DNA of 64,000 nt from Candidatus Omnitrophota bacterium. GTDB taxonomy: Bacteria > Omnitrophota > Gorgyraeia > Zapsychrales > Aceulaceae. Below are positions 39,260-44,950 of this stretch, in pieces; position 1 is the first letter of the stretch, and the number at the start of each line of letters is the position of its first letter. The stretch spans positions 18,977-82,976 of the forward strand of contig JAKQPK010000050.1 in NCBI GenBank assembly GCA_029564765.1. Reading direction: 5' to 3'. Position numbers and translations under genes: made by a program. The notes under the pieces are model-generated. The model worked only from the letters and a program-made list of their open reading frames with translations, did not search any database and was not told the origin of the DNA.

Positions 39260-39288
39260 ATTATAAATCTTTTCCCTCGAAAATTCAA
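39260..39288 (-). promoter_or_regulatory. Candidate sigma70 promoter for the rib operon: TTGAAT-17-TATAAT
   Basis: Minus-strand -35 TTGAAT (plus 39283-39288), 17-nt spacer, -10 TATAAT (plus 39260-39265). Leader ~68 nt, too short for an FMN riboswitch; none of the conserved FMN-element sequence blocks are present. Confidence 0.4.
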
Positions 39289-39318
39289 GGCAAATAAGTG
39301 GCTACCGCTATAAAGCGC

Positions 39319-42300
39319 TTAAGAAAAAATTTTGTTGCTAGATTCTTCTAGCCCAAGCAACGGATAAAGATCTGCAACGGGCGTGATATTGATGATGACT
39401 GGCACAAAGCCAGGGATGCTCTCTAGATCCACACCCTGCCATTCGGGTGGCAGGTTAAATTGGATCGGCGATGAGCCCGTTCGCCTGAGCTCAAGATTGG
39501 TAGCATTAAGATCGATACCTCCAACCTGTTCTCCTTCTTGCATGCTATCAGCAAGATAAACTTTGTCAGAATTCTCTGGAGAAATTCCTGAACTAAAGAT
39601 CTGAAGCGTTCCATGTCCTGACTTTAAATATTCTTTTGTTATATTAAAAAGATCTTGTGCAGTGTAGAGCTCCCCAGAAAGAAAAACATTCTCTCCTCTG
39701 TTTTTATAGCCCACAGCCCTGATTCCTATGCTCGAAAGCATCAGCAATAAAGCAGGCCAAGAAACAGACGATTCATAGACGTTCACATCTTTGTTGCCAA
39801 GCTTAAATTTGACCTGCTTGATCTTGCCTGCCTCGTCAAAATCAATAATAACTTCAGATATAGATTCATCAGCAGAAAATATTTTTCCAGCCTGCGGAAA
39901 TATCGTGCGCATGACATTCCCGGTATTCTTTTTATTCCAATCGAGCCCAATACCCCCCATGCAGGAAGACAAGATCACATTTCCACCCTTGCTCAACAGA
40001 GGTCCAAGAAAATCTTTTAAGACTGGAGCCGACTGGTCATTAATGATCATTTCATTGGCCTGATCCTGACTTTTTGCCTCACCCAAGACCAATCCGTTAG
40101 ATATCGTACCACCATAAAAAGATGTATATCCATGCCCTCCCACGTAAACGATGTCAAAGACACCTTTGTTGTCCTTGAATTTTTCCATCTCGTACTTTAA
40201 TTCATTAATATTTGATTTCGAAACAAAATAAATGTAATAGCCATGATCTAGAAGACTTTTGATGATATCGATCTCGGTATCAAAAGCGCTATTATCATCG
40301 CTCTCCGGAAGGACCATAAGGACTGTTCCCGTATATTGTGTTTTTGTGGCTAAGGTCACAGGGTTGCTACGCATGTCCACGATCTGATCGATCACTTTAG
40401 GCCCTAGCTGGGAAGCCTTAAAGATTCCTGCCTCAAGAGCCTGAAGGTAGGACTTGGCCGATGAGGAAAGATTACTAAGATTATCAATAAAGCCTTGGCT
40501 TTTTGCAAAAGAAAATGCTTGTTTAATAACAAGCATAACCTCGGCAGGGGCATTATCAACAATATCTACAATTAAGTCTGAAAACTCTGTCTCGCCCTCA
40601 CTGGCATGCTTAAGGATTGATACGAGATCTTTAAAAACTATGTCTGTGGGGGCAATGTCTAAAAACTCTAAATACGTCCCAATACCTTTAAGATAAATAA
40701 TATTGTTGGATAATAAAGTCAAATCCTTAGCCAGCGCGTCGAGATCTCCCTGGTATTTTCCTGTAGAATACCCCAAGGCGCTTATATATCCTTTCTCTCT
40801 TAAAACATTCTTAATCTGATCAATGTTCTCATTTTGCTGAAAAATAAGTGTTTGCGCGATACGCTCCGCATATGGCTTAAATTCATCAGAGAGCTGTTTT
40901 TGCCCTACGATTAATCCGCTGATAACGGTACGAAATTTAATTATATTAAATAAATCTTTCAAAGAAATCTCATTCTTGACTGAGTTTTTGTTATATTGCT
41001 CTATATCTTTCCTGAAATGAATCGGGTTCAATGCGAATTCCTGGCTAATTTCATTAACTAGGTTTTCGCTTAAAACAACCTTTGATTGGGGATCGGAAAA
41101 GCTGACCTTTAGCTTATAATTGCTAAATATATCCTTCAGACTTTCCAGGATATAAGATTGTGTAGGCCTATTTTGGCCACTTGGGAAAAGATCATTAAAA
41201 TCAAAACGCCCAGCCTGTTGGTCGGCATCTGTATCAATAATTTCTTTAACAATTAATTCTCTCCAAAGCCTATGAGGATCGATCTTTTGTGCAATTAACC
41301 AGTTAAAATCAGAAACAGGAACAGTTCTTCTGAAAAATCCTAGTCCGCTATAAATATCCTGATCAATAGATGAAAAAAATTCGTTATAGCCATCATTAAA
41401 GATATTATGCGTGGCTTTATTAAAGCGCGTTGCTCTAATTTTGTCATTCCATTCATCTATATCGACTTCATGTGTTAAATATTCCTTTTTTAACTGGCTC
41501 TGGCGGTCTTGTTTCTGGTCATGATGAATATTATTCTCCATCATATATTTCTTAGCATCAGGATGGAAGCTAGCAAGGTAGTCGTCAATGTATTCCGGGT
41601 TCAGAAGATCAGAGATATCCATGGCCGCAAAGTATTTATTAAACCGGGAATTGTTGTATGATAGATAATTTTTGTATCGTTCCAGCATTTCTCGATCCAG
41701 CTTCGTTGGTAAAGACCTATAATTCAAATTATTTAGAATTTTCTGAATATAGTCTGGACCCAAGAAATCATATGCTTGACTTATATAATACGTCAATCCT
41801 TCGTATGATTCAGTCGTTAAGCTTTTCTCGATCATCTCTTCAAAAGGAAATTTCTTCAAAACATTTTCCATCAAATCCATATTTTCATTAATATTGGAGC
41901 TTTTAAGAAATCGGTCGTTTAAATTAGTTATGGATCCAAGCAAGTTTGTGAGATGGGCTATGTCTGAATCATTGATCTTCTTTCCTTTAAGGCTTTCTAA
42001 GTACTCTCTAGTCTCTCCTAAAAAGTCTTTAAAATTATCTTTGATGATTTCCTTTGTCTCACCTGTAAATCCGTCCTCATTCTGACTGGAGGGAGAAATT
42101 CCTGAAAAATCAACAGAAGGCTCTTCCCATTCCCGATTGCTAAAAAACCAATCGTCCATATCTTTGTATCCACCTGCTTTTCCTTGCGCTCGCAATTCCG
42201 TAATATGTTGCTTCCATTTTATATACTCTTCTGCTAAAGCAGGTTTGTTCAAAACTTTAAAGATGCTCACGATTTCTTGATCGGAATAATATAATAAAAT

Positions 42301-44169
42301 TTTCGTATCGATAACGCCTACGACCCTTTTGTTGTAATAGACATAGCCCAAGGCATCCATTGGCCCAGGAGAACGATTGTCTCCAAGCTGAATCTTTATT
42401 TTCTTTCTATCCTGATTTTGCAGATGTTCTATGGGCCTATAAGTAAATTTTCCAGACAGATCACCTCTTTTTAAAAAATTCTGCATCTTGTCTTCCCTAA
42501 CCACCTCTTGCAGTTCCTTCGGAACGAAACTCTCAAACAATCTTGCAACTATTTCCTTTCGGTCTTTCTCCAATTTTTCACGATAATCTTTATTAACTTC
42601 AAAATCTTTATTACCTGCACTCTTGGGAGAATTTAAGGCTGCCAAATATTCAACAATCTCTGGATTGTCAAGCGCTACCTCCATTCCGGCAATGTAATCG
42701 TTGATCTCATCTGAAATCTTCCATGGCATCTTGTCTTTATTTTCATTATAAAACTTTTTTAAATCCTCAAAAGGGACGGCTTGCTTTAGATAAATGGGAA
42801 ACCACTCATATTGATAAAGATTCTCCTTTTCCGCGTTCGCCAAAGTCCAAGCATAGCCGTTCTTAACACTTTTGTTTAAAATGTCAGAATTTCTCCTTGC
42901 CTTCTCCTGAAGAGGATCATCTGGCATATAGCGATCAACAGAAGTTGTAAGATCATTAAGCTGGCTCCTATAGCTTTCTTCCTGGCTAGGATTTGCTAGC
43001 GCAACATTTGTCAAAAACATTGATCCAACAACAAAAGCGGTAACGGCTGTCTTAAGCGTTGACAAAGGCTTTGATAAAATGGAGGAAGAAATATTTTCTC
43101 CTTCAAAACCCCCGGAAAAATACTTGCGCGCAACTGGTTTCTTCGTTGCAGGGTCTTGCTCGATTCGCACAAAGTCACACACGCCTTTTTCAAAGGCATC
43201 CAGATATTGATCATAGATCTTTTCCGTGGCCTTGGGGTCATCCACATTGACACCTGCGACCTTATTTTTATCGCTGTAAACTTTATTTAGGATAGAGGTT
43301 TTAAGAGCTTGCTTGTACCAGGTCGCCAAGACCATCGCGTGATACATTTGGCGTAAAGTAGCGAAATTCTTGCCTTCGTTGACCTCTTTCTCTAAAAGAG
43401 GCAGAACGACTTCACGGACGACCCGGGAAGAAAGCTCTGAGGTCTTCTCAGCGCTCTCCTTGGATCCTTGCTGAGTCCCAAGCTTTTCACTTTGACTATT
43501 ATTTTCAAGCGACAGGTAGTCCTGCTCCAGCATAACCTTTAAATGACTTTCGGTCACAATCGCTCGGTCAGAATCTTCGTAAACAACGGCTCTGTCTGGC
43601 ACGATCCAAACTTTATTGAAGGTATTTACGGGGATCTTGGTTGTGCCAAATTCTTCATAAGCTTTTTTGTAAACTTTTACCCAAAAATCTTTACCTGTAT
43701 CGCTATCAGGATAAATGAGAGAAGCTGTAATCTGTTTTAGAATGTAATCTTGCGCTAAAAGGTCCCTGCCCATATCTGTCTGACCAAGGGACTCCGGGAT
43801 GATACGGTCATCTTCATAAGGAGAAAGGTTAACCCACAGGTCTTTTTCAGGGGTTGTAAGCGATGCAAGGAAATACTTCGCAAGCTTCTCGCTCTCGCTT
43901 TTAAGCTCATCGGCTTGAAGACCTGTGTTACCGCTATCGATAATAAAATCGAACCTGAGAGGATTGTCTGGGTAAACCTTAATACCGCGCAACATGACCG
44001 GCACAAAACCAGGGCTGAGGTTGACCATTGAGCCGGGAGCAGGGAGGCTAAAAACGCCCTGAGCCAAAGCTTGTGCAGGCACAGAGCTCATCAGAGTAAA
44101 TGATAATAAAAGACAAATAACAACTGTTTTAAACAGAAACGATGTCTTTTCCGTGGCTAAAAAAAACAT
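39319..44169 (-). CDS. Giant (1616 aa) secreted protein of unknown function with a C-terminal caspase-like (clan CD) His/Cys signature
   Basis: Start re-picked at ATG 44167-44169 with SD AAGGAGA 6 nt upstream, giving an N-terminal signal peptide (MFFLATEKTSFLFKTVVICLLLSFTLMSSVPAQALAQ). The 62 codons upstream in the track ORF overlap non-coding direct repeats. The C-terminal ~200 aa have a beta-strand-HG segment (FDIVYVGGHG) and, ~55 aa later, a hydrophobic-strand-Cys-x-G segment (NVILSSCMGG), the order and spacing of the caspase/CHAT/gingipain dyad. PGFVPV occurs near both termini. The central ~2 kb is ~35% GC against ~50% at both ends. Confidence 0.7.
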   Translation of the reverse strand: MFFLATEKTSFLFKTVVICLLLSFTLMSSVPAQALAQGVFSLPAPGSMVNLSPGFVPVMLRGIKVYPDNPLRFDFIIDSGNTGLQADELKSESEKLAKYFLASLTTPEKDLWVNLSPYEDDRIIPESLGQTDMGRDLLAQDYILKQITASLIYPDSDTGKDFWVKVYKKAYEEFGTTKIPVNTFNKVWIVPDRAVVYEDSDRAIVTESHLKVMLEQDYLSLENNSQSEKLGTQQGSKESAEKTSELSSRVVREVVLPLLEKEVNEGKNFATLRQMYHAMVLATWYKQALKTSILNKVYSDKNKVAGVNVDDPKATEKIYDQYLDAFEKGVCDFVRIEQDPATKKPVARKYFSGGFEGENISSSILSKPLSTLKTAVTAFVVGSMFLTNVALANPSQEESYRSQLNDLTTSVDRYMPDDPLQEKARRNSDILNKSVKNGYAWTLANAEKENLYQYEWFPIYLKQAVPFEDLKKFYNENKDKMPWKISDEINDYIAGMEVALDNPEIVEYLAALNSPKSAGNKDFEVNKDYREKLEKDRKEIVARLFESFVPKELQEVVREDKMQNFLKRGDLSGKFTYRPIEHLQNQDRKKIKIQLGDNRSPGPMDALGYVYYNKRVVGVIDTKILLYYSDQEIVSIFKVLNKPALAEEYIKWKQHITELRAQGKAGGYKDMDDWFFSNREWEEPSVDFSGISPSSQNEDGFTGETKEIIKDNFKDFLGETREYLESLKGKKINDSDIAHLTNLLGSITNLNDRFLKSSNINENMDLMENVLKKFPFEEMIEKSLTTESYEGLTYYISQAYDFLGPDYIQKILNNLNYRSLPTKLDREMLERYKNYLSYNNSRFNKYFAAMDISDLLNPEYIDDYLASFHPDAKKYMMENNIHHDQKQDRQSQLKKEYLTHEVDIDEWNDKIRATRFNKATHNIFNDGYNEFFSSIDQDIYSGLGFFRRTVPVSDFNWLIAQKIDPHRLWRELIVKEIIDTDADQQAGRFDFNDLFPSGQNRPTQSYILESLKDIFSNYKLKVSFSDPQSKVVLSENLVNEISQEFALNPIHFRKDIEQYNKNSVKNEISLKDLFNIIKFRTVISGLIVGQKQLSDEFKPYAERIAQTLIFQQNENIDQIKNVLREKGYISALGYSTGKYQGDLDALAKDLTLLSNNIIYLKGIGTYLEFLDIAPTDIVFKDLVSILKHASEGETEFSDLIVDIVDNAPAEVMLVIKQAFSFAKSQGFIDNLSNLSSSAKSYLQALEAGIFKASQLGPKVIDQIVDMRSNPVTLATKTQYTGTVLMVLPESDDNSAFDTEIDIIKSLLDHGYYIYFVSKSNINELKYEMEKFKDNKGVFDIVYVGGHGYTSFYGGTISNGLVLGEAKSQDQANEMIINDQSAPVLKDFLGPLLSKGGNVILSSCMGGIGLDWNKKNTGNVMRTIFPQAGKIFSADESISEVIIDFDEAGKIKQVKFKLGNKDVNVYESSVSWPALLLMLSSIGIRAVGYKNRGENVFLSGELYTAQDLFNITKEYLKSGHGTLQIFSSGISPENSDKVYLADSMQEGEQVGGIDLNATNLELRRTGSSPIQFNLPPEWQGVDLESIPGFVPVIINITPVADLYPLLGLEESSNKIFS

Positions 44170-44262
44170 CCTATTTCTCCTTTTTCTGACAAATAAAGTA
44201 TAGAACATACGCAGCTGAATTAAAGAGGCTAACATGGTTTCCAGGAAAGCGGTTCCTTGGAT

Positions 44263-44351
44263 CGCCATAATCGACTGGCGGCCCAAGGACTCCGAGCCAA
44301 CAGCGAAGGAGCCAATCACGCCATAATCGACTGGCTGCCCAAGGACTGCGA
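44263..44351. repeat. Two 33-bp imperfect direct repeats (31/33 identical, period 56 bp) in the divergent intergenic region upstream of the giant gene
   Basis: cgccataatcgactggcggcccaaggactccga at 44263-44295 and cgccataatcgactggctgcccaaggactgcga at 44319-44351. A 7-bp inverted repeat TCCTTGG/CCAAGGA (44253-44259 and 44283-44289) brackets copy 1. The copies lie ~95-180 bp upstream of the giant gene's ATG and ~80-135 bp upstream of a weak promoter (poor -35, -10 TATACT at 44197-44202). Confidence 0.5.
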
Positions 44352-44431
44352 ACATTAAAAAATTTGAGAAACGGCTGGCAAAAAAATAGAAAAATATAAT
44401 TACATATTAAACTTTAACTTAGTTTCGCTTT

Positions 44432-44462
44432 ACATATCTATTGCTAATGATTTCTGATTTTT
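44432..44462 (+). promoter_or_regulatory. Candidate promoter TTGCTA-17-TATAAT for cinA/thpR, implying a near-leaderless transcript
   Basis: Plus strand -35 TTGCTA (44432-44437), 17-nt spacer, -10 TATAAT (44457-44462). The predicted TSS at ~44469 is only 4-5 nt before the tandem ATGATG at 44474, and neither candidate start has an SD. Confidence 0.35.
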
Positions 44463-44950
44463 CTATAATAACGATGATGCAAATAGCTAAGAAAGTCGCC
44501 CACACTCTTATTCAGCGCCATCAAACCTTATCGGTCGCGGAATCATGCACTGGTGGCTTTCTCGCGCACACCTTCACCAATATCCCGGGCAGTTCACAGT
44601 TCTTCAAGCTTGGGGTCATCGCCTATGCCAACGAAGCTAAGACGATCGTTTTGAACGTGCCGGCGCAAACGATCGCTTCCAAAGGCGCTGTAAGCCTTCT
44701 GACCGTCAAGCGCATGGCCAAAGGTGTTCGCTCAATCCTAAAAACGGATTTCAGCGTGGCGATCAGCGGTATTGCTGGCCCAACGGGCTCTACAGAAAAG
44801 AAACCCATTGGCCTGGTCATGATCGCTATCGCCTCTCACAAGAGGGTCCGTGCGGCAAAGTTTCGTTTTCACGGCTCTCGTCTTTCCATCAAAAAACAAG
44901 CTACCGCCAAGGCGCTTAAGCTACTGTTAGCGCTTATCAATGAAAAATAA
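44441..44950 (+). CDS. CinA C-terminal domain protein (nicotinamide-nucleotide amidohydrolase PncC-like)
   Basis: LSVAESCTGG...ISGIAGP motifs of the CinA_C/PncC family; ~160 aa. The alternative start at 44474 is equally plausible. Confidence 0.8.
   Translation: MLMISDFSIITMMQIAKKVAHTLIQRHQTLSVAESCTGGFLAHTFTNIPGSSQFFKLGVIAYANEAKTIVLNVPAQTIASKGAVSLLTVKRMAKGVRSILKTDFSVAISGIAGPTGSTEKKPIGLVMIAIASHKRVRAAKFRFHGSRLSIKKQATAKALKLLLALINEK

What the first reader, a model, noticed from the sequence alone, without database searches (positions are those of the whole stretch)
44170..44440. Two 33-bp direct repeats in the divergent promoter region of the giant gene; the track's 62-codon N-terminal extension is an artefact of reading through them
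The repeats at 44263-44295 and 44319-44351 are 31/33 identical with a 56-bp period, and copy 1 is bracketed by a 7-bp inverted repeat (TCCTTGG...CCAAGGA). They sit ~95-180 bp upstream of the giant gene's SD-supported ATG and ~80-135 bp upstream of a candidate promoter with a poor -35 (-10 TATACT at 44197-44202). That geometry suggests tandem binding sites for a direct-repeat-recognising activator, such as an OmpR/PhoB-type response regulator. Read on the minus strand, the repeats produce the duplicated peptide LGQPVDYGVIG / LGRQSIMAIQ, which is why the six-frame ORF extends to 44355.
Basis: seen in the sequence. Interest (0 to 1): 0.55.

Follow-up and report, generated by a model that had tools for sequence, protein, structure and literature searches.

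The report
Hairpin repeats beside conserved giant-gene promoter box
The two 33-bp repeats are real, but they are lineage-specific hairpin-forming sequences lying next to the element that is actually conserved: a 16-bp palindromic box set exactly 40 bp upstream of the promoter -10 element of a family of very large secreted proteins in Omnitrophota bacteria.

Summary
There are two 33-bp direct repeats (44263-44295 and 44319-44351, 31/33 identical, 56-bp period). Copy 1 lies inside a hairpin with 14-nt arms. The 62-codon N-terminal extension is an artefact.

The window comes from a Candidatus Omnitrophota MAG. Eight upstream regions of this large-protein family from other assemblies show what is conserved:
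- a 16-bp palindromic box (AAGRAAsCGCTTTCYT; window 44243-44258);
- a spacing of exactly 40 bp from the box to a -10 hexamer TATAYT (44197-44202);
- a weak -35.

The box would be centred near -60, which fits an activator-dependent promoter. The box, not the 33-mers, is the conserved site. The hairpin repeats occur only in a narrow sub-clade, and the distal copy is decayed in the nearest homologue. One relative has an unrelated hairpin beside the box, and more distant relatives have none. An OmpR/PhoB-type direct-repeat site is therefore not supported.

The repeats are most likely accessory structural hairpins that insulate or terminate transcription upstream of the promoter unit, and the two copies were homogenised in this lineage. 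The closest syntenic relatives lack the gene and its upstream region, which sit between the back-to-back ribBA and cinA promoters.

Interest is modest. The conserved box architecture is the useful result.

The parts
44263..44295 (.). 33-bp direct repeat, copy 1 (proximal to the giant gene). On the minus strand it supplies the left arm, the loop and the inner right arm of the proximal hairpin.
44319..44351 (.). 33-bp direct repeat, copy 2 (distal), 31/33 identical to copy 1. It lacks the outer right arm, and its fold is no better than shuffled sequence (z -1.7).
44254..44289 (-). Proximal GC-rich hairpin or palindrome: 14-nt arms and an 8-nt loop. As RNA it folds at -24.1 kcal/mol (z -3.8). Its right arm on the minus strand overlaps the left half of the conserved box by 5 nt. 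L047 and L008 have the same stem without mismatches (L047: -32.9 kcal/mol, z -7.3).
44243..44258 (-). Conserved 16-bp palindromic box AAGGAACCGCTTTCCT (family consensus AAGRAAsCGCTTTCYT; a perfect palindrome AAGAAAGCGCTTTCTT in L002). It lies exactly 40 nt upstream of the -10 hexamer in all 8 family promoters examined. Its centre is at about -60.5 if the TSS is near 44190 (inferred, not mapped).
44219..44224 (-). Weak -35-like hexamer TTTAAT with a 16-nt spacer to the -10. Conserved as CTTTAAT in L047 and L062.
44197..44202 (-). -10-like hexamer TATACT. It is TATACT in 6 of the 8 family promoters and TATATT in the other 2.
44177..44180 (-). Shine-Dalgarno GGAG, 7 nt before the ATG.
39319..44169 (-). 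Gene for a large secreted protein (1616 aa, identical to P0001, MAG locus tag PKO44_00300). It has an N-terminal signal peptide and the conserved domain of about 400 aa shared by thousands of Omnitrophota large proteins. No Pfam domain is detected.
44352..44440 (.). AT-rich filler (18-30% GC) between the hairpin island and the cinA -35. It is not significantly similar to any homologous locus, and no sigma-70-like promoter was found on the minus strand.
44441..44469 (+). cinA promoter-like site TTGCTA-17-TATAAT, conserved in L003 and L005. It marks the right-hand edge of the lineage-specific segment.
39260..39288 (-). ribBA promoter-like site TTGAAT-17-TATAAT, conserved in L003 and L005. It marks the left-hand edge of the lineage-specific segment (about 39289-44440).

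Best explanation
The two 33-bp repeats are the two units of a sub-clade-specific tandem pair of GC-rich, hairpin-forming palindromic modules. They lie directly upstream of the giant gene's conserved promoter unit. That unit is a 16-bp palindromic box (44243-44258), exactly 40 bp of non-conserved spacer containing a weak -35 (TTTAAT), then the -10 TATACT, the Shine-Dalgarno sequence and the ATG. The box would be centred near -60, the position of a class-I activator site at a promoter with a poor -35. It is the best candidate for the regulator-binding site of this protein family (inferred by analogy). The repeats are not required by the promoter unit, because more distant family members have the box and -10 without them. 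I infer that they act at the level of structure. A stable hairpin abutting the box would stop or process transcripts entering from upstream, which in the relatives L047 and L044 come from the co-directional PadR operon. The giant gene would then depend on its own box-controlled promoter. In this window the distal unit has lost its outer right arm and the proximal stem carries two unpaired or wobble positions. The 31/33 identity of the two units is best explained by recent gene conversion or duplication between the tandem copies, not by selection for two protein sites. Shown: the repeats, the hairpin potential, the conservation and fixed spacing of the box, and the absence of the gene from the closest syntenic relatives. 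Inferred: the TSS, activator binding at the box, the insulator or terminator role, and the gene conversion.
For: Box and spacing. The box lies 40 nt upstream of TATAYT in 8 of 8 family genes held (window, L047, L008, L009/L044, L062, L063, L002a, L002b), while the spacer sequence has diverged. Only two other matches with up to 3 mismatches occur in 198 kb of Omnitrophota DNA, one inside the window's giant gene and one inside the giant gene of L002. The distance from the -10 to the start codon varies from 27 to 463 nt, so the -10 is tied to the box and not to the ORF.
The promoter unit starts at the box. In L062 and L002a the upstream gene's stop codon lies a few nucleotides before the box (6 nt in L062, 13 nt in L002a) and there is no hairpin.
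Hairpins. One strong hairpin abuts the box in each sub-clade member: window -24.1 kcal/mol (z -3.8), L047 -32.9 (z -7.3), and L044 an unrelated sequence at -25.0 (z -6.2). In L047 and L044 the hairpin block begins about 20 nt after the PadR stop codon. Loci that have PadR but no giant gene have no such hairpin.
Decay and homogenisation. The distal copy of L047 keeps only the left arm. The window's proximal loop GTCGATTA is of the distal type seen in L044 (GGCGATTA), whereas the proximal loops of L047 and L008 are ATCGCTCA and GTCGGTCA.
Not a dispersed repeat. There are no other copies in the 64-kb window or in the related loci.
Against: The hairpins are not canonical intrinsic terminators. The 3' flank is ACCGCUUUCCU, or CUUUCCU if the stem is extended, which is not a clean U-tract. 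The L044 hairpin has no U-tract at all. In the window there is no co-directional upstream gene to insulate against, yet both units are still recognisable. There is no compensatory covariation (0 double-sided changes in 14 pairs), although only 5 closely related sequences were available. The arms are conserved in sequence as well as in pairing, which an operator would also show. The centre of the proximal palindrome is exactly 21 bp (two helical turns) from the box centre in the window and L047, and L008 shows the same register between the inner palindrome and the box. This would suit a second DNA-binding protein. The TSS is not mapped. No regulator has been identified for the box.
Confidence: 0.45

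Rival explanations
1. The palindromic cores of the repeats (CGCCA-N8-TGGCG, with outer arms TCCTTGG/CCAAGGA on copy 1) are operators for a dimeric DNA-binding regulator that acts together with the box-binding protein. A possible candidate is the highly conserved PadR-family protein encoded directly upstream in L047, L044 and L002.
For: The arms are conserved in sequence while the 8-nt spacer varies (GTCGATTA, ATCGCTCA, GTCGGTCA, GGCGATTA), as expected for a dimer operator. The 8-nt spacer matches the geometry of canonical PadR operators, ATGT-N8-10-ACAT (PMC3506622). The palindrome centre is 21 bp from the box centre in the window, L047 and L008. A PadR gene lies immediately upstream of the element in L047 and L044.
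Against: The half-site sequence (GCCA) is unrelated to ATGT. No GCCA-N8-TGGC occurs anywhere else in the PadR-bearing loci, including upstream of the PadR operons, so there is no autoregulatory site. In L044 the position next to the box is occupied by an unrelated hairpin, and the H-type palindrome sits about 100 bp from the box, so the phasing is not conserved. Box-containing promoters in L062, L063, L002a and L002b lack the palindrome. No PadR homologue is present in the 64-kb window.
Confidence: 0.2
2. The island is an inert remnant of a small palindromic insertion (REP-, MITE- or IS-end-like) or of a replication-slippage duplication. It landed upstream of the promoter unit in the ancestor of the sub-clade and has no present function.
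For: It is restricted to a narrow sub-clade. The copies are decaying: the distal copy of L047 has no fold, the window's distal copy has no right arm, and the window's proximal stem has two defects. Other palindromes have accumulated at the same place in L044. The giant gene with its upstream block appears in different genomic contexts (after PadR, after a TP_methylase gene, and divergent from cinA).
Against: No dispersed copies were found in the window, in the related loci, or in GTDB representative genomes using an exact 21-base pattern. A strong hairpin is kept right next to the box in every sub-clade member, including by an unrelated sequence in L044. The stem is perfect (14 bp) in L047 and, over the part the contig retains, in L008.
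Confidence: 0.18
3. One reading: the two 33-mers are tandem binding sites for an activator that recognises direct repeats (an OmpR/PhoB-type response regulator) and drives the weak promoter.
For: The promoter has a weak -35 and a conserved -10. The two copies are 31/33 identical in the window.
Against: The second copy is not conserved in the nearest homologue, and neither copy exists in four more distant family promoters that keep the box and the -10. The 33-bp unit and 56-bp period do not match the roughly 10-11-bp periodicity of OmpR/PhoB sites (established knowledge). Each unit is itself palindromic. The sites lie at about -73 to -161, not adjacent to the -35.
Confidence: 0.07
4. The island is part of a structured 5' leader RNA (a riboswitch-like or attenuator element) of a transcript that starts in the AT-rich stretch 44352-44440.
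For: It is a G+C-rich island in AT-rich DNA. Alternative pairings are possible between TCCTTGG, CCAAGGA and TTTCCTGG. A relative, L009, does carry a riboswitch (c-di-GMP-I) in the leader of its giant gene.
Against: There is no Rfam match on the island even at E<=10. No sigma-70-like promoter was found on the minus strand upstream of it. There is no covariation. The fold of the 151-nt region is weakly supported (z -1.9). The L009 riboswitch lies downstream of the box and -10 unit, which supports a TSS downstream of the box.
Confidence: 0.06

Closest known systems
Class I activator-dependent sigma-70 promoters (CRP/FNR-type sites centred near -61.5)
   Same: A 16-bp palindromic site at a fixed distance upstream of a good -10, with a poor -35. 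The inferred centre is about -60.5. The spacing is strictly conserved (40 bp from box to -10) while the spacer sequence diverges.
   Different: The box sequence (AAGAAAGC|GCTTTCTT) matches no characterised CRP or FNR consensus that I know of. The regulator is unknown and the TSS is not mapped. This comparison applies to the box, not to the 33-bp repeats.
Intergenic GC-rich hairpins acting as terminators, insulators or 3'-end stabilisers (REP/BIME-type or non-canonical terminators)
   Same: Tandem stable GC-rich stem-loops sit between a co-directional upstream operon (PadR in L047 and L044) and the next promoter. Sequences vary between relatives but a hairpin is kept.
   Different: There is no U-tract. 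The elements are not dispersed in the sequence available, whereas REP elements occur in tens to hundreds of copies. In this window there is no upstream co-directional gene.
PadR-family operators (ATGT-N8-10-ACAT; PMC3506622)
   Same: An inverted repeat with an 8-nt spacer, and a PadR gene immediately upstream in three related loci.
   Different: The half-sites are different (GCCA/TGGC). No copy was found at the PadR operon's own promoter region. The element is absent from most loci that carry PadR.
OmpR/PhoB-type tandem direct-repeat sites
   Same: Direct repeats upstream of a promoter with a weak -35.
   Different: The unit length (33 bp) and period (56 bp) are far from the roughly one-turn periodicity. 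The units are palindromic. The second copy is not conserved.

Membership tests
OmpR/PhoB-type response-regulator site | Short direct repeats spaced about one helical turn (10-11 bp) apart | tested here: not met
   The units are 33 bp at a 56-bp period. Each unit contains its own inverted repeat, CGCCA-N8-TGGCG.
OmpR/PhoB-type response-regulator site | Both repeat copies conserved in orthologous promoters | tested here: not met
   The distal copy of L047 retains only 13/16 of the left arm. L062, L063, L002a and L002b have no repeat.
OmpR/PhoB-type response-regulator site | Site adjacent to or replacing the -35 | tested here: not met
   The repeats span about -73 to -161 relative to the inferred TSS near 44190. 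The box, not the repeats, lies between them and the -35.
REP/BIME-like dispersed extragenic palindromes | Many dispersed copies per genome | tested here: inconclusive
   No further copies in the 64-kb window, none in about 130 kb of related Omnitrophota loci, and none in GTDB representatives with an exact pattern. The rest of the source genome could not be read.
Intrinsic (Rho-independent) terminator | GC-rich stem-loop | tested here: met
   Window -24.1 kcal/mol (z -3.8); L047 -32.9 kcal/mol (z -7.3).
Intrinsic (Rho-independent) terminator | U-tract immediately 3' of the stem | tested here: not met
   The 3' flank is ACCGCUUUCCUGG. The terminator scan does not report it. Canonical terminators are not enriched in this genome segment in any case (16 found against 18.7 expected).
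Intrinsic (Rho-independent) terminator | Lies downstream of a co-directional gene | tested here: inconclusive
   Met in L047 and L044, about 20 nt after the PadR stop. Not met in the window, where cinA is divergent.
PadR-family operator | Inverted repeat ATGT/ACAT separated by 8-10 nt (PMC3506622) | tested here: not met
   The spacer length fits (8 nt), but the half-sites are GCCA/TGGC. No ATGT-N8-ACAT occurs in the intergenic region.
PadR-family operator | Site also present at the regulator's own promoter (autoregulation) | tested here: not met
   GCCA-N8-TGGC is absent from the PadR-operon loci L047, L050, L055, L059, L060 and L002, apart from the copy upstream of the giant gene in L047.
Class I activator site (applies to the box at 44243-44258) | Palindromic site of about 16 bp, conserved across orthologous and paralogous promoters | tested here: met
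   Present in 8 of 8 promoters and a perfect palindrome in L002b.
Class I activator site (applies to the box at 44243-44258) | Centre near -61.5 relative to a mapped TSS; binding by an activator | not testable with these tools
   A centre at -60.5 follows only from assuming a TSS 7 nt after TATACT. There are no transcript or binding data.
Known structured RNA families (Rfam 15) | Covariance-model match | tested here: not met
   No match overlaps 44230-44360 even at E<=10.
Coding sequence (N-terminal extension, or the 30-aa plus-strand small ORF 44235-44327) | Reading frame and start codon conserved in homologues | tested here: not met
   The upstream frame is closed within 0-20 codons in the homologues. 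L047 and L008 have no ATG at the small-ORF position.

The most novel reading that the evidence does not exclude
The 16-bp palindromic box, fixed 40 bp upstream of the -10, is the operator of a phylum-wide regulon. Through it a single, still unidentified activator (possibly the near-universal, 75-100% identical Omnitrophota PadR-like protein) switches on the hugely expanded family of large secreted or surface proteins. The hairpin modules would be add-on insulators that let such promoter-plus-gene cassettes work wherever they land, for example between the ribBA and cinA promoters here.
Probability: 0.25. Interest if true: 0.6.

Novelty: new member of a known kind. Interest (0 to 1): 0.33.

Why it matters
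Omnitrophota are uncultured, mostly ultra-small and probably host-dependent bacteria. Their genomes are marked by very many large to giant secreted proteins of unknown function, and the two Omnitrophota giant-gene papers I checked contain no mention of promoters or of PadR. A conserved promoter architecture (box, 40 bp, -10) gives a concrete sequence handle. It can be used to predict the regulon in any Omnitrophota genome, to search for the regulator, and to interpret metatranscriptomes. The 33-bp repeats themselves matter less. They illustrate how a conspicuous repeat can distract from the shorter element that is actually conserved.

Tried and rejected
1. Dispersed-repeat test. The 29-mer with 3 mismatches and a word-7 blastn in the window found only the two copies. 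An exact 21-base pattern found nothing in GTDB representative genomes. The 22-base box pattern also found nothing there, so the source species and its close relatives are apparently not among the representatives.
2. Metagenome scan with RRAACCGCTTTCCTGRAAAC. It returned 40 loci, of which 37 were chance or coding matches. Only L035 (the same contig as L008), L044 and L047 are real.
3. Rfam on the island: nothing.
4. Plus-strand 30-aa small ORF (44235-44327, with an AAGAGG Shine-Dalgarno). Rejected because L047 and L008 have no start codon at that position.
5. The idea that 44352-44440 retains the 3' end of a PadR gene, which would prove relocation from a PadR locus. The alignment score equals the shuffled mean, so I dropped it.
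6. The idea that the repeat derives from the ancestral cinA promoter, based on 'CCAAGGACT' in L003. The match has p of about 0.04 among several tests and is absent in L005, so I dropped it.
7. PadR operator hypothesis. No second site was found in any PadR locus.
8. Sigma-54 and ECF-type promoter readings of the box region. The spacing and the -12/-10 elements do not fit, or are not conserved across homologues (inspection).
9. Covariation test of the hairpin. There were no compensatory changes, and the sequences are too few and too similar to decide.
10. Viral-contig scans for the box architecture and for the N-terminal domain. They gave nothing useful. L065 is a 31%-identical relative with no box.
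11. Integron attC-like and dif/Xer-like readings of the palindrome. The core motifs (GTTRRRY; 11-6-11) are absent, judged by inspection only.

Full report
**1. The observation**

A degenerate 29-mer allowing three mismatches matches only these two sites in the 64-kb window, against 0.00 expected. A sensitive blastn of the island against the window finds nothing else.

Copy 1 lies inside an inverted repeat that is longer than reported. The arms are 44254-44267 and 44276-44289, 14 nt each, 12/14 complementary, with an 8-nt loop. Each repeat unit also contains its own small palindrome, CGCCA-N8-TGGCG/T.

The repeats sit in a roughly 115-bp island of 58-64% G+C. The rest of the intergenic region is 18-30% G+C.

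**2. The gene start**

The six-frame ORF runs to 44355. The deposited protein, however, is 1616 aa and starts at the ATG at 44169 (P0001, 100% identity and coverage). That ATG is preceded by GGAG and followed by a typical signal peptide (MFFLATEKTSFLFKTVVICLLLSFTLMSSVPAQALA|QG).

Homologues start at the same place. Their upstream frame closes after 0-20 codons, against 79 in the window.

**3. Source and context**

The window comes from a Candidatus Omnitrophota MAG, GCA_035358335.1, contig DAOPPE010000001.1. The 1616-aa protein has no Pfam domain. Its first 400 or so residues are a domain shared at about 50-82% identity (among the listed hits) with thousands of large Omnitrophota proteins that otherwise differ.

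The two closest syntenic relatives have CinA 65-68% identical to the window's (L003-L007). They keep the whole neighbourhood, PNPase-FtsK-...-pgpA / ligT-cinA <> ribBA-ribH-nusB-..., but have no giant gene. In them, ribBA and cinA are divergent and about 115 bp apart.

Alignment by eye of the junctions shows where homology ends and resumes. It ends at the ribBA -35 (TTGAAT, 39283-39288) and resumes at the cinA -35 (TTGCTA, 44441). About 5.15 kb is therefore lineage-specific: the giant gene plus its 270-bp upstream region, including the repeats. This segment sits between two back-to-back promoters.

A more distant organism (L063/L064) has a different member of the family in the same cinA-ribBA slot. 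I therefore leave open whether the gene was gained here or lost in the relatives.

**4. Homologous upstream regions**

The closest N-terminal-domain relatives have homologous upstream DNA: P0002 in L008 (82% identical over the N-terminal domain) and P0003 in L009 (76%). One metagenome scan with a 20-base pattern added L047 and L044, the latter being the upstream continuation of L009. Two further look-ups gave L062 and L063. L002 (Candidatus Aceula meridiana) carries two family genes. One of them, P0004, is the only full-length relative of the window's protein (33% identity over 94%).

A tblastn with the N-terminal domain confirms that these are all the family genes in the DNA I hold. L047 escapes that search because the fetched locus ends about 150 bp into its gene.

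**5. What is conserved**

Alignment A1 and a mismatch-tolerant scan show a 16-bp box. It reads AAGGAACCGCTTTCCT in the window (44258->44243 on the minus strand). Relatives have AAGAAACCGCTTTCCT, AAGGTAGCGCTTTCCC and AAGAAAGCGTTTTCTT, and the second gene of L002 has the perfect palindrome AAGAAAGCGCTTTCTT.

- In all eight promoters the box ends exactly 40 nt before a TATAYT hexamer (TATACT in six, TATATT in two).
- The 40-nt spacer has diverged beyond recognition between the distant members.
- The distance from the -10 to the start codon ranges from 27 to 463 nt.
- In 198 kb of Omnitrophota DNA only two other matches with up to 3 mismatches exist, both inside giant-gene coding sequence. Roughly 1.5 are expected by chance (my calculation).
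- A weak -35 (TTTAAT, 16-nt spacer) precedes the -10.

With a TSS about 7 nt after the -10 (an assumption), the box is centred at about -60.5. That is the classic position of a class-I activator site at a promoter with a poor -35 (established knowledge of CRP/FNR-type activation).

**6. What the repeats are**

They occur only in the window, L047, L008 and L044.

- In L047 and L008 the proximal unit forms a hairpin with no mismatches (14 bp in L047; L008's contig starts inside the left arm): TCCTTGGGCCGCCA-loop-TGGCGGCCCAAGGA. The L047 hairpin folds at -32.9 kcal/mol, z -7.3.
- The window's version has one G.U pair and one C/A mismatch (-24.1 kcal/mol, z -3.8).
- The right arm overlaps the box by 5 nt.
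- The distal unit is intact as a hairpin only in L044 (-20.5 kcal/mol). In the window it lacks the outer right arm (z -1.7). In L047 only the 16-nt left arm is recognisable and nothing folds.
- In L044 the position next to the box holds an unrelated 43-nt hairpin (-25.0 kcal/mol, z -6.2).
- L062, L063 and both L002 genes have the box and promoter with no hairpin. In L062 and L002a the stop codon of the upstream gene lies a few nucleotides before the box (6 and 13 nt).

The promoter unit therefore begins at the box, and the hairpins are an accessory placed just outside it. In L047 and L044 the hairpin block starts about 20 nt after the stop codon of a co-directional PadR-family gene. Loci with the same PadR operon but no giant gene have no such hairpin. 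The hairpins therefore travel with the giant-gene cassette and are not part of the PadR operon.

The window's proximal loop (GTCGATTA) is of the distal type seen in L044 (GGCGATTA). The proximal loops of L047 and L008 differ (ATCGCTCA, GTCGGTCA). This suggests that the 31/33 identity in the window reflects recent conversion between the tandem units (inference).

**7. Mechanism**

My best reading (confidence about 0.45) is that the repeats are structural hairpin modules. They would insulate the box-controlled promoter from transcription arriving from upstream, by acting as a terminator, a roadblock or a 3'-end-forming element. In this window they would be partly decayed and of little present use.

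Points for this reading:
- the position immediately outside the promoter unit;
- a stable hairpin is kept next to the box even when its sequence is replaced;
- the location after a co-directional operon in the relatives;
- the repeats are not dispersed.

Points against it:
- there is no U-tract, although canonical terminators are not enriched in this genome segment in any case (16 found against 18.7 expected);
- there is no covariation;
- there is nothing to insulate against in the window;
- the arms are conserved in sequence, and the palindrome centre lies exactly 21 bp from the box centre, both of which would also suit a second DNA-binding protein.

The rivals are these:
- **A dimeric operator, possibly for PadR (0.2).** The 8-nt spacer fits the PadR operator geometry ATGT-N8-10-ACAT (PMC3506622). 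The half-sites differ, however, and no second site exists in any PadR locus.
- **An inert palindromic remnant (0.18).**
- **A leader RNA (0.06).** There is no Rfam match and no upstream promoter.

**8. Comparison with what is known, and novelty**

The repeats are an ordinary kind of object, intergenic GC-rich palindromes, and I did not find them elsewhere. The box-40-bp-TATAYT architecture resembles class-I activator-dependent promoters. Its sequence matches no consensus I know. The two Omnitrophota giant-gene papers I checked contain no mention of promoters or of PadR. I rate the finding 'new member of a known kind' and give it modest interest (0.33).

The most novel reading still open is that the box defines a phylum-wide regulon for the expanded family of large secreted proteins. 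The evidence so far is eight promoters falling into about five independent lineages.

Noticed in passing
window 39289-44440 (junctions at 39288/39289 and 44440/44441): The giant gene plus its upstream region is a lineage-specific segment of about 5.15 kb. It lies between the back-to-back -35 hexamers of the divergent ribBA (TTGAAT-17-TATAAT, 39288->39260) and cinA (TTGCTA-17-TATAAT, 44441-44469) promoters. The syntenic relatives L003-L007 have only about 10 bp (ATGTTTAATG) there. No target-site duplication is evident.
   Followed up: partly
L063 1197-12728 (and L064): A more distant Omnitrophota organism carries a different member of the same protein family (P0008, 2575 aa) in the same cinA-ribBA slot, followed by DUF6788 and NTP_transf_8 genes. 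The slot is therefore either a recurrent landing site or an old location lost in L003/L005.
   Followed up: no
L009 301-385 (+): A c-di-GMP-I riboswitch aptamer (RF01051, 60.1 bits against a gathering score of 35; the GGC variant scores 58.8) lies in the 463-nt leader between the box and -10 unit and the start of the giant-family gene P0003. At least one family member is thus under c-di-GMP control. The window's gene has only a leader of about 20 nt and no riboswitch.
   Followed up: partly
L047 8077-10593; L002 3313-5833; L050 5000-7513; L055, L059, L060: A four-gene operon of about 360, 141, 152 and 171 aa (the last a PadR-family protein) is conserved across Omnitrophota. The PadR protein is 75-100% identical among more than 100 clusters. 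It is normally followed by an AMP-binding (acyl-CoA synthetase-like) gene. In L044/L009 a giant-family gene is wedged between the two, and in L047 and L002 one directly follows PadR.
   Followed up: partly
L050 7520-7640; L055 3520-3650; L059, L060, L009 4630-4700: The promoter and leader of the AMP-binding gene are strongly conserved between genera (TTGACA-17-TATTAAAAT, then ACTAGTAAAATTTCACTA). In L050 and L055 the leader contains a hairpin, CACTACTTT...AAAGTAGTG, which may be an undescribed cis-regulatory leader.
   Followed up: no
L002 12680-12800 and L009 170-300: GC-rich, hairpin-rich stretches of about 120 nt look similar to each other by eye (…TTTGCGCGGTAATCC…CTGTCCGGTGACAG… against …TTTGGCGGGGTACCCC…CTGTCAGGTGACAGG…). 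In L009 the stretch lies downstream of the promoter unit, just before the riboswitch. In L002 it lies upstream of the box of the second giant-family gene. There is no Rfam match in L002.
   Followed up: partly
window 39319-44169 and proteins P0002-P0020: The protein family is modular. It has a signal peptide, a conserved N-terminal domain of about 400 aa, a highly variable middle that often contains ordinary enzyme domains, and a conserved C-terminal motif of about 60 aa (GGIDLN..NLELKRTGSS.IQF.LP.EWQGVDL...PGFVPVIINI.P). The upstream region and N-terminal domain are about 80% identical between genes whose remaining sequence is unrelated, which suggests recombination at the domain boundary.
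   Followed up: no
window 44235-44327 (+): A 30-codon ORF (MVSRKAVPWIAIIDWRPKDSEPTAKEPITP) with a good AAGAGG Shine-Dalgarno sequence runs through copy 1 on the plus strand. It is not conserved, because L047 and L008 have no start codon there.
   Followed up: yes
window 44386-44395 and 44457-44466: A perfect 10-nt inverted repeat (ATAGAAAAAT / ATTTTTCTAT) links the AT-rich filler with the spacer and -10 of the cinA promoter. It may be chance in AT-rich DNA.
   Followed up: no
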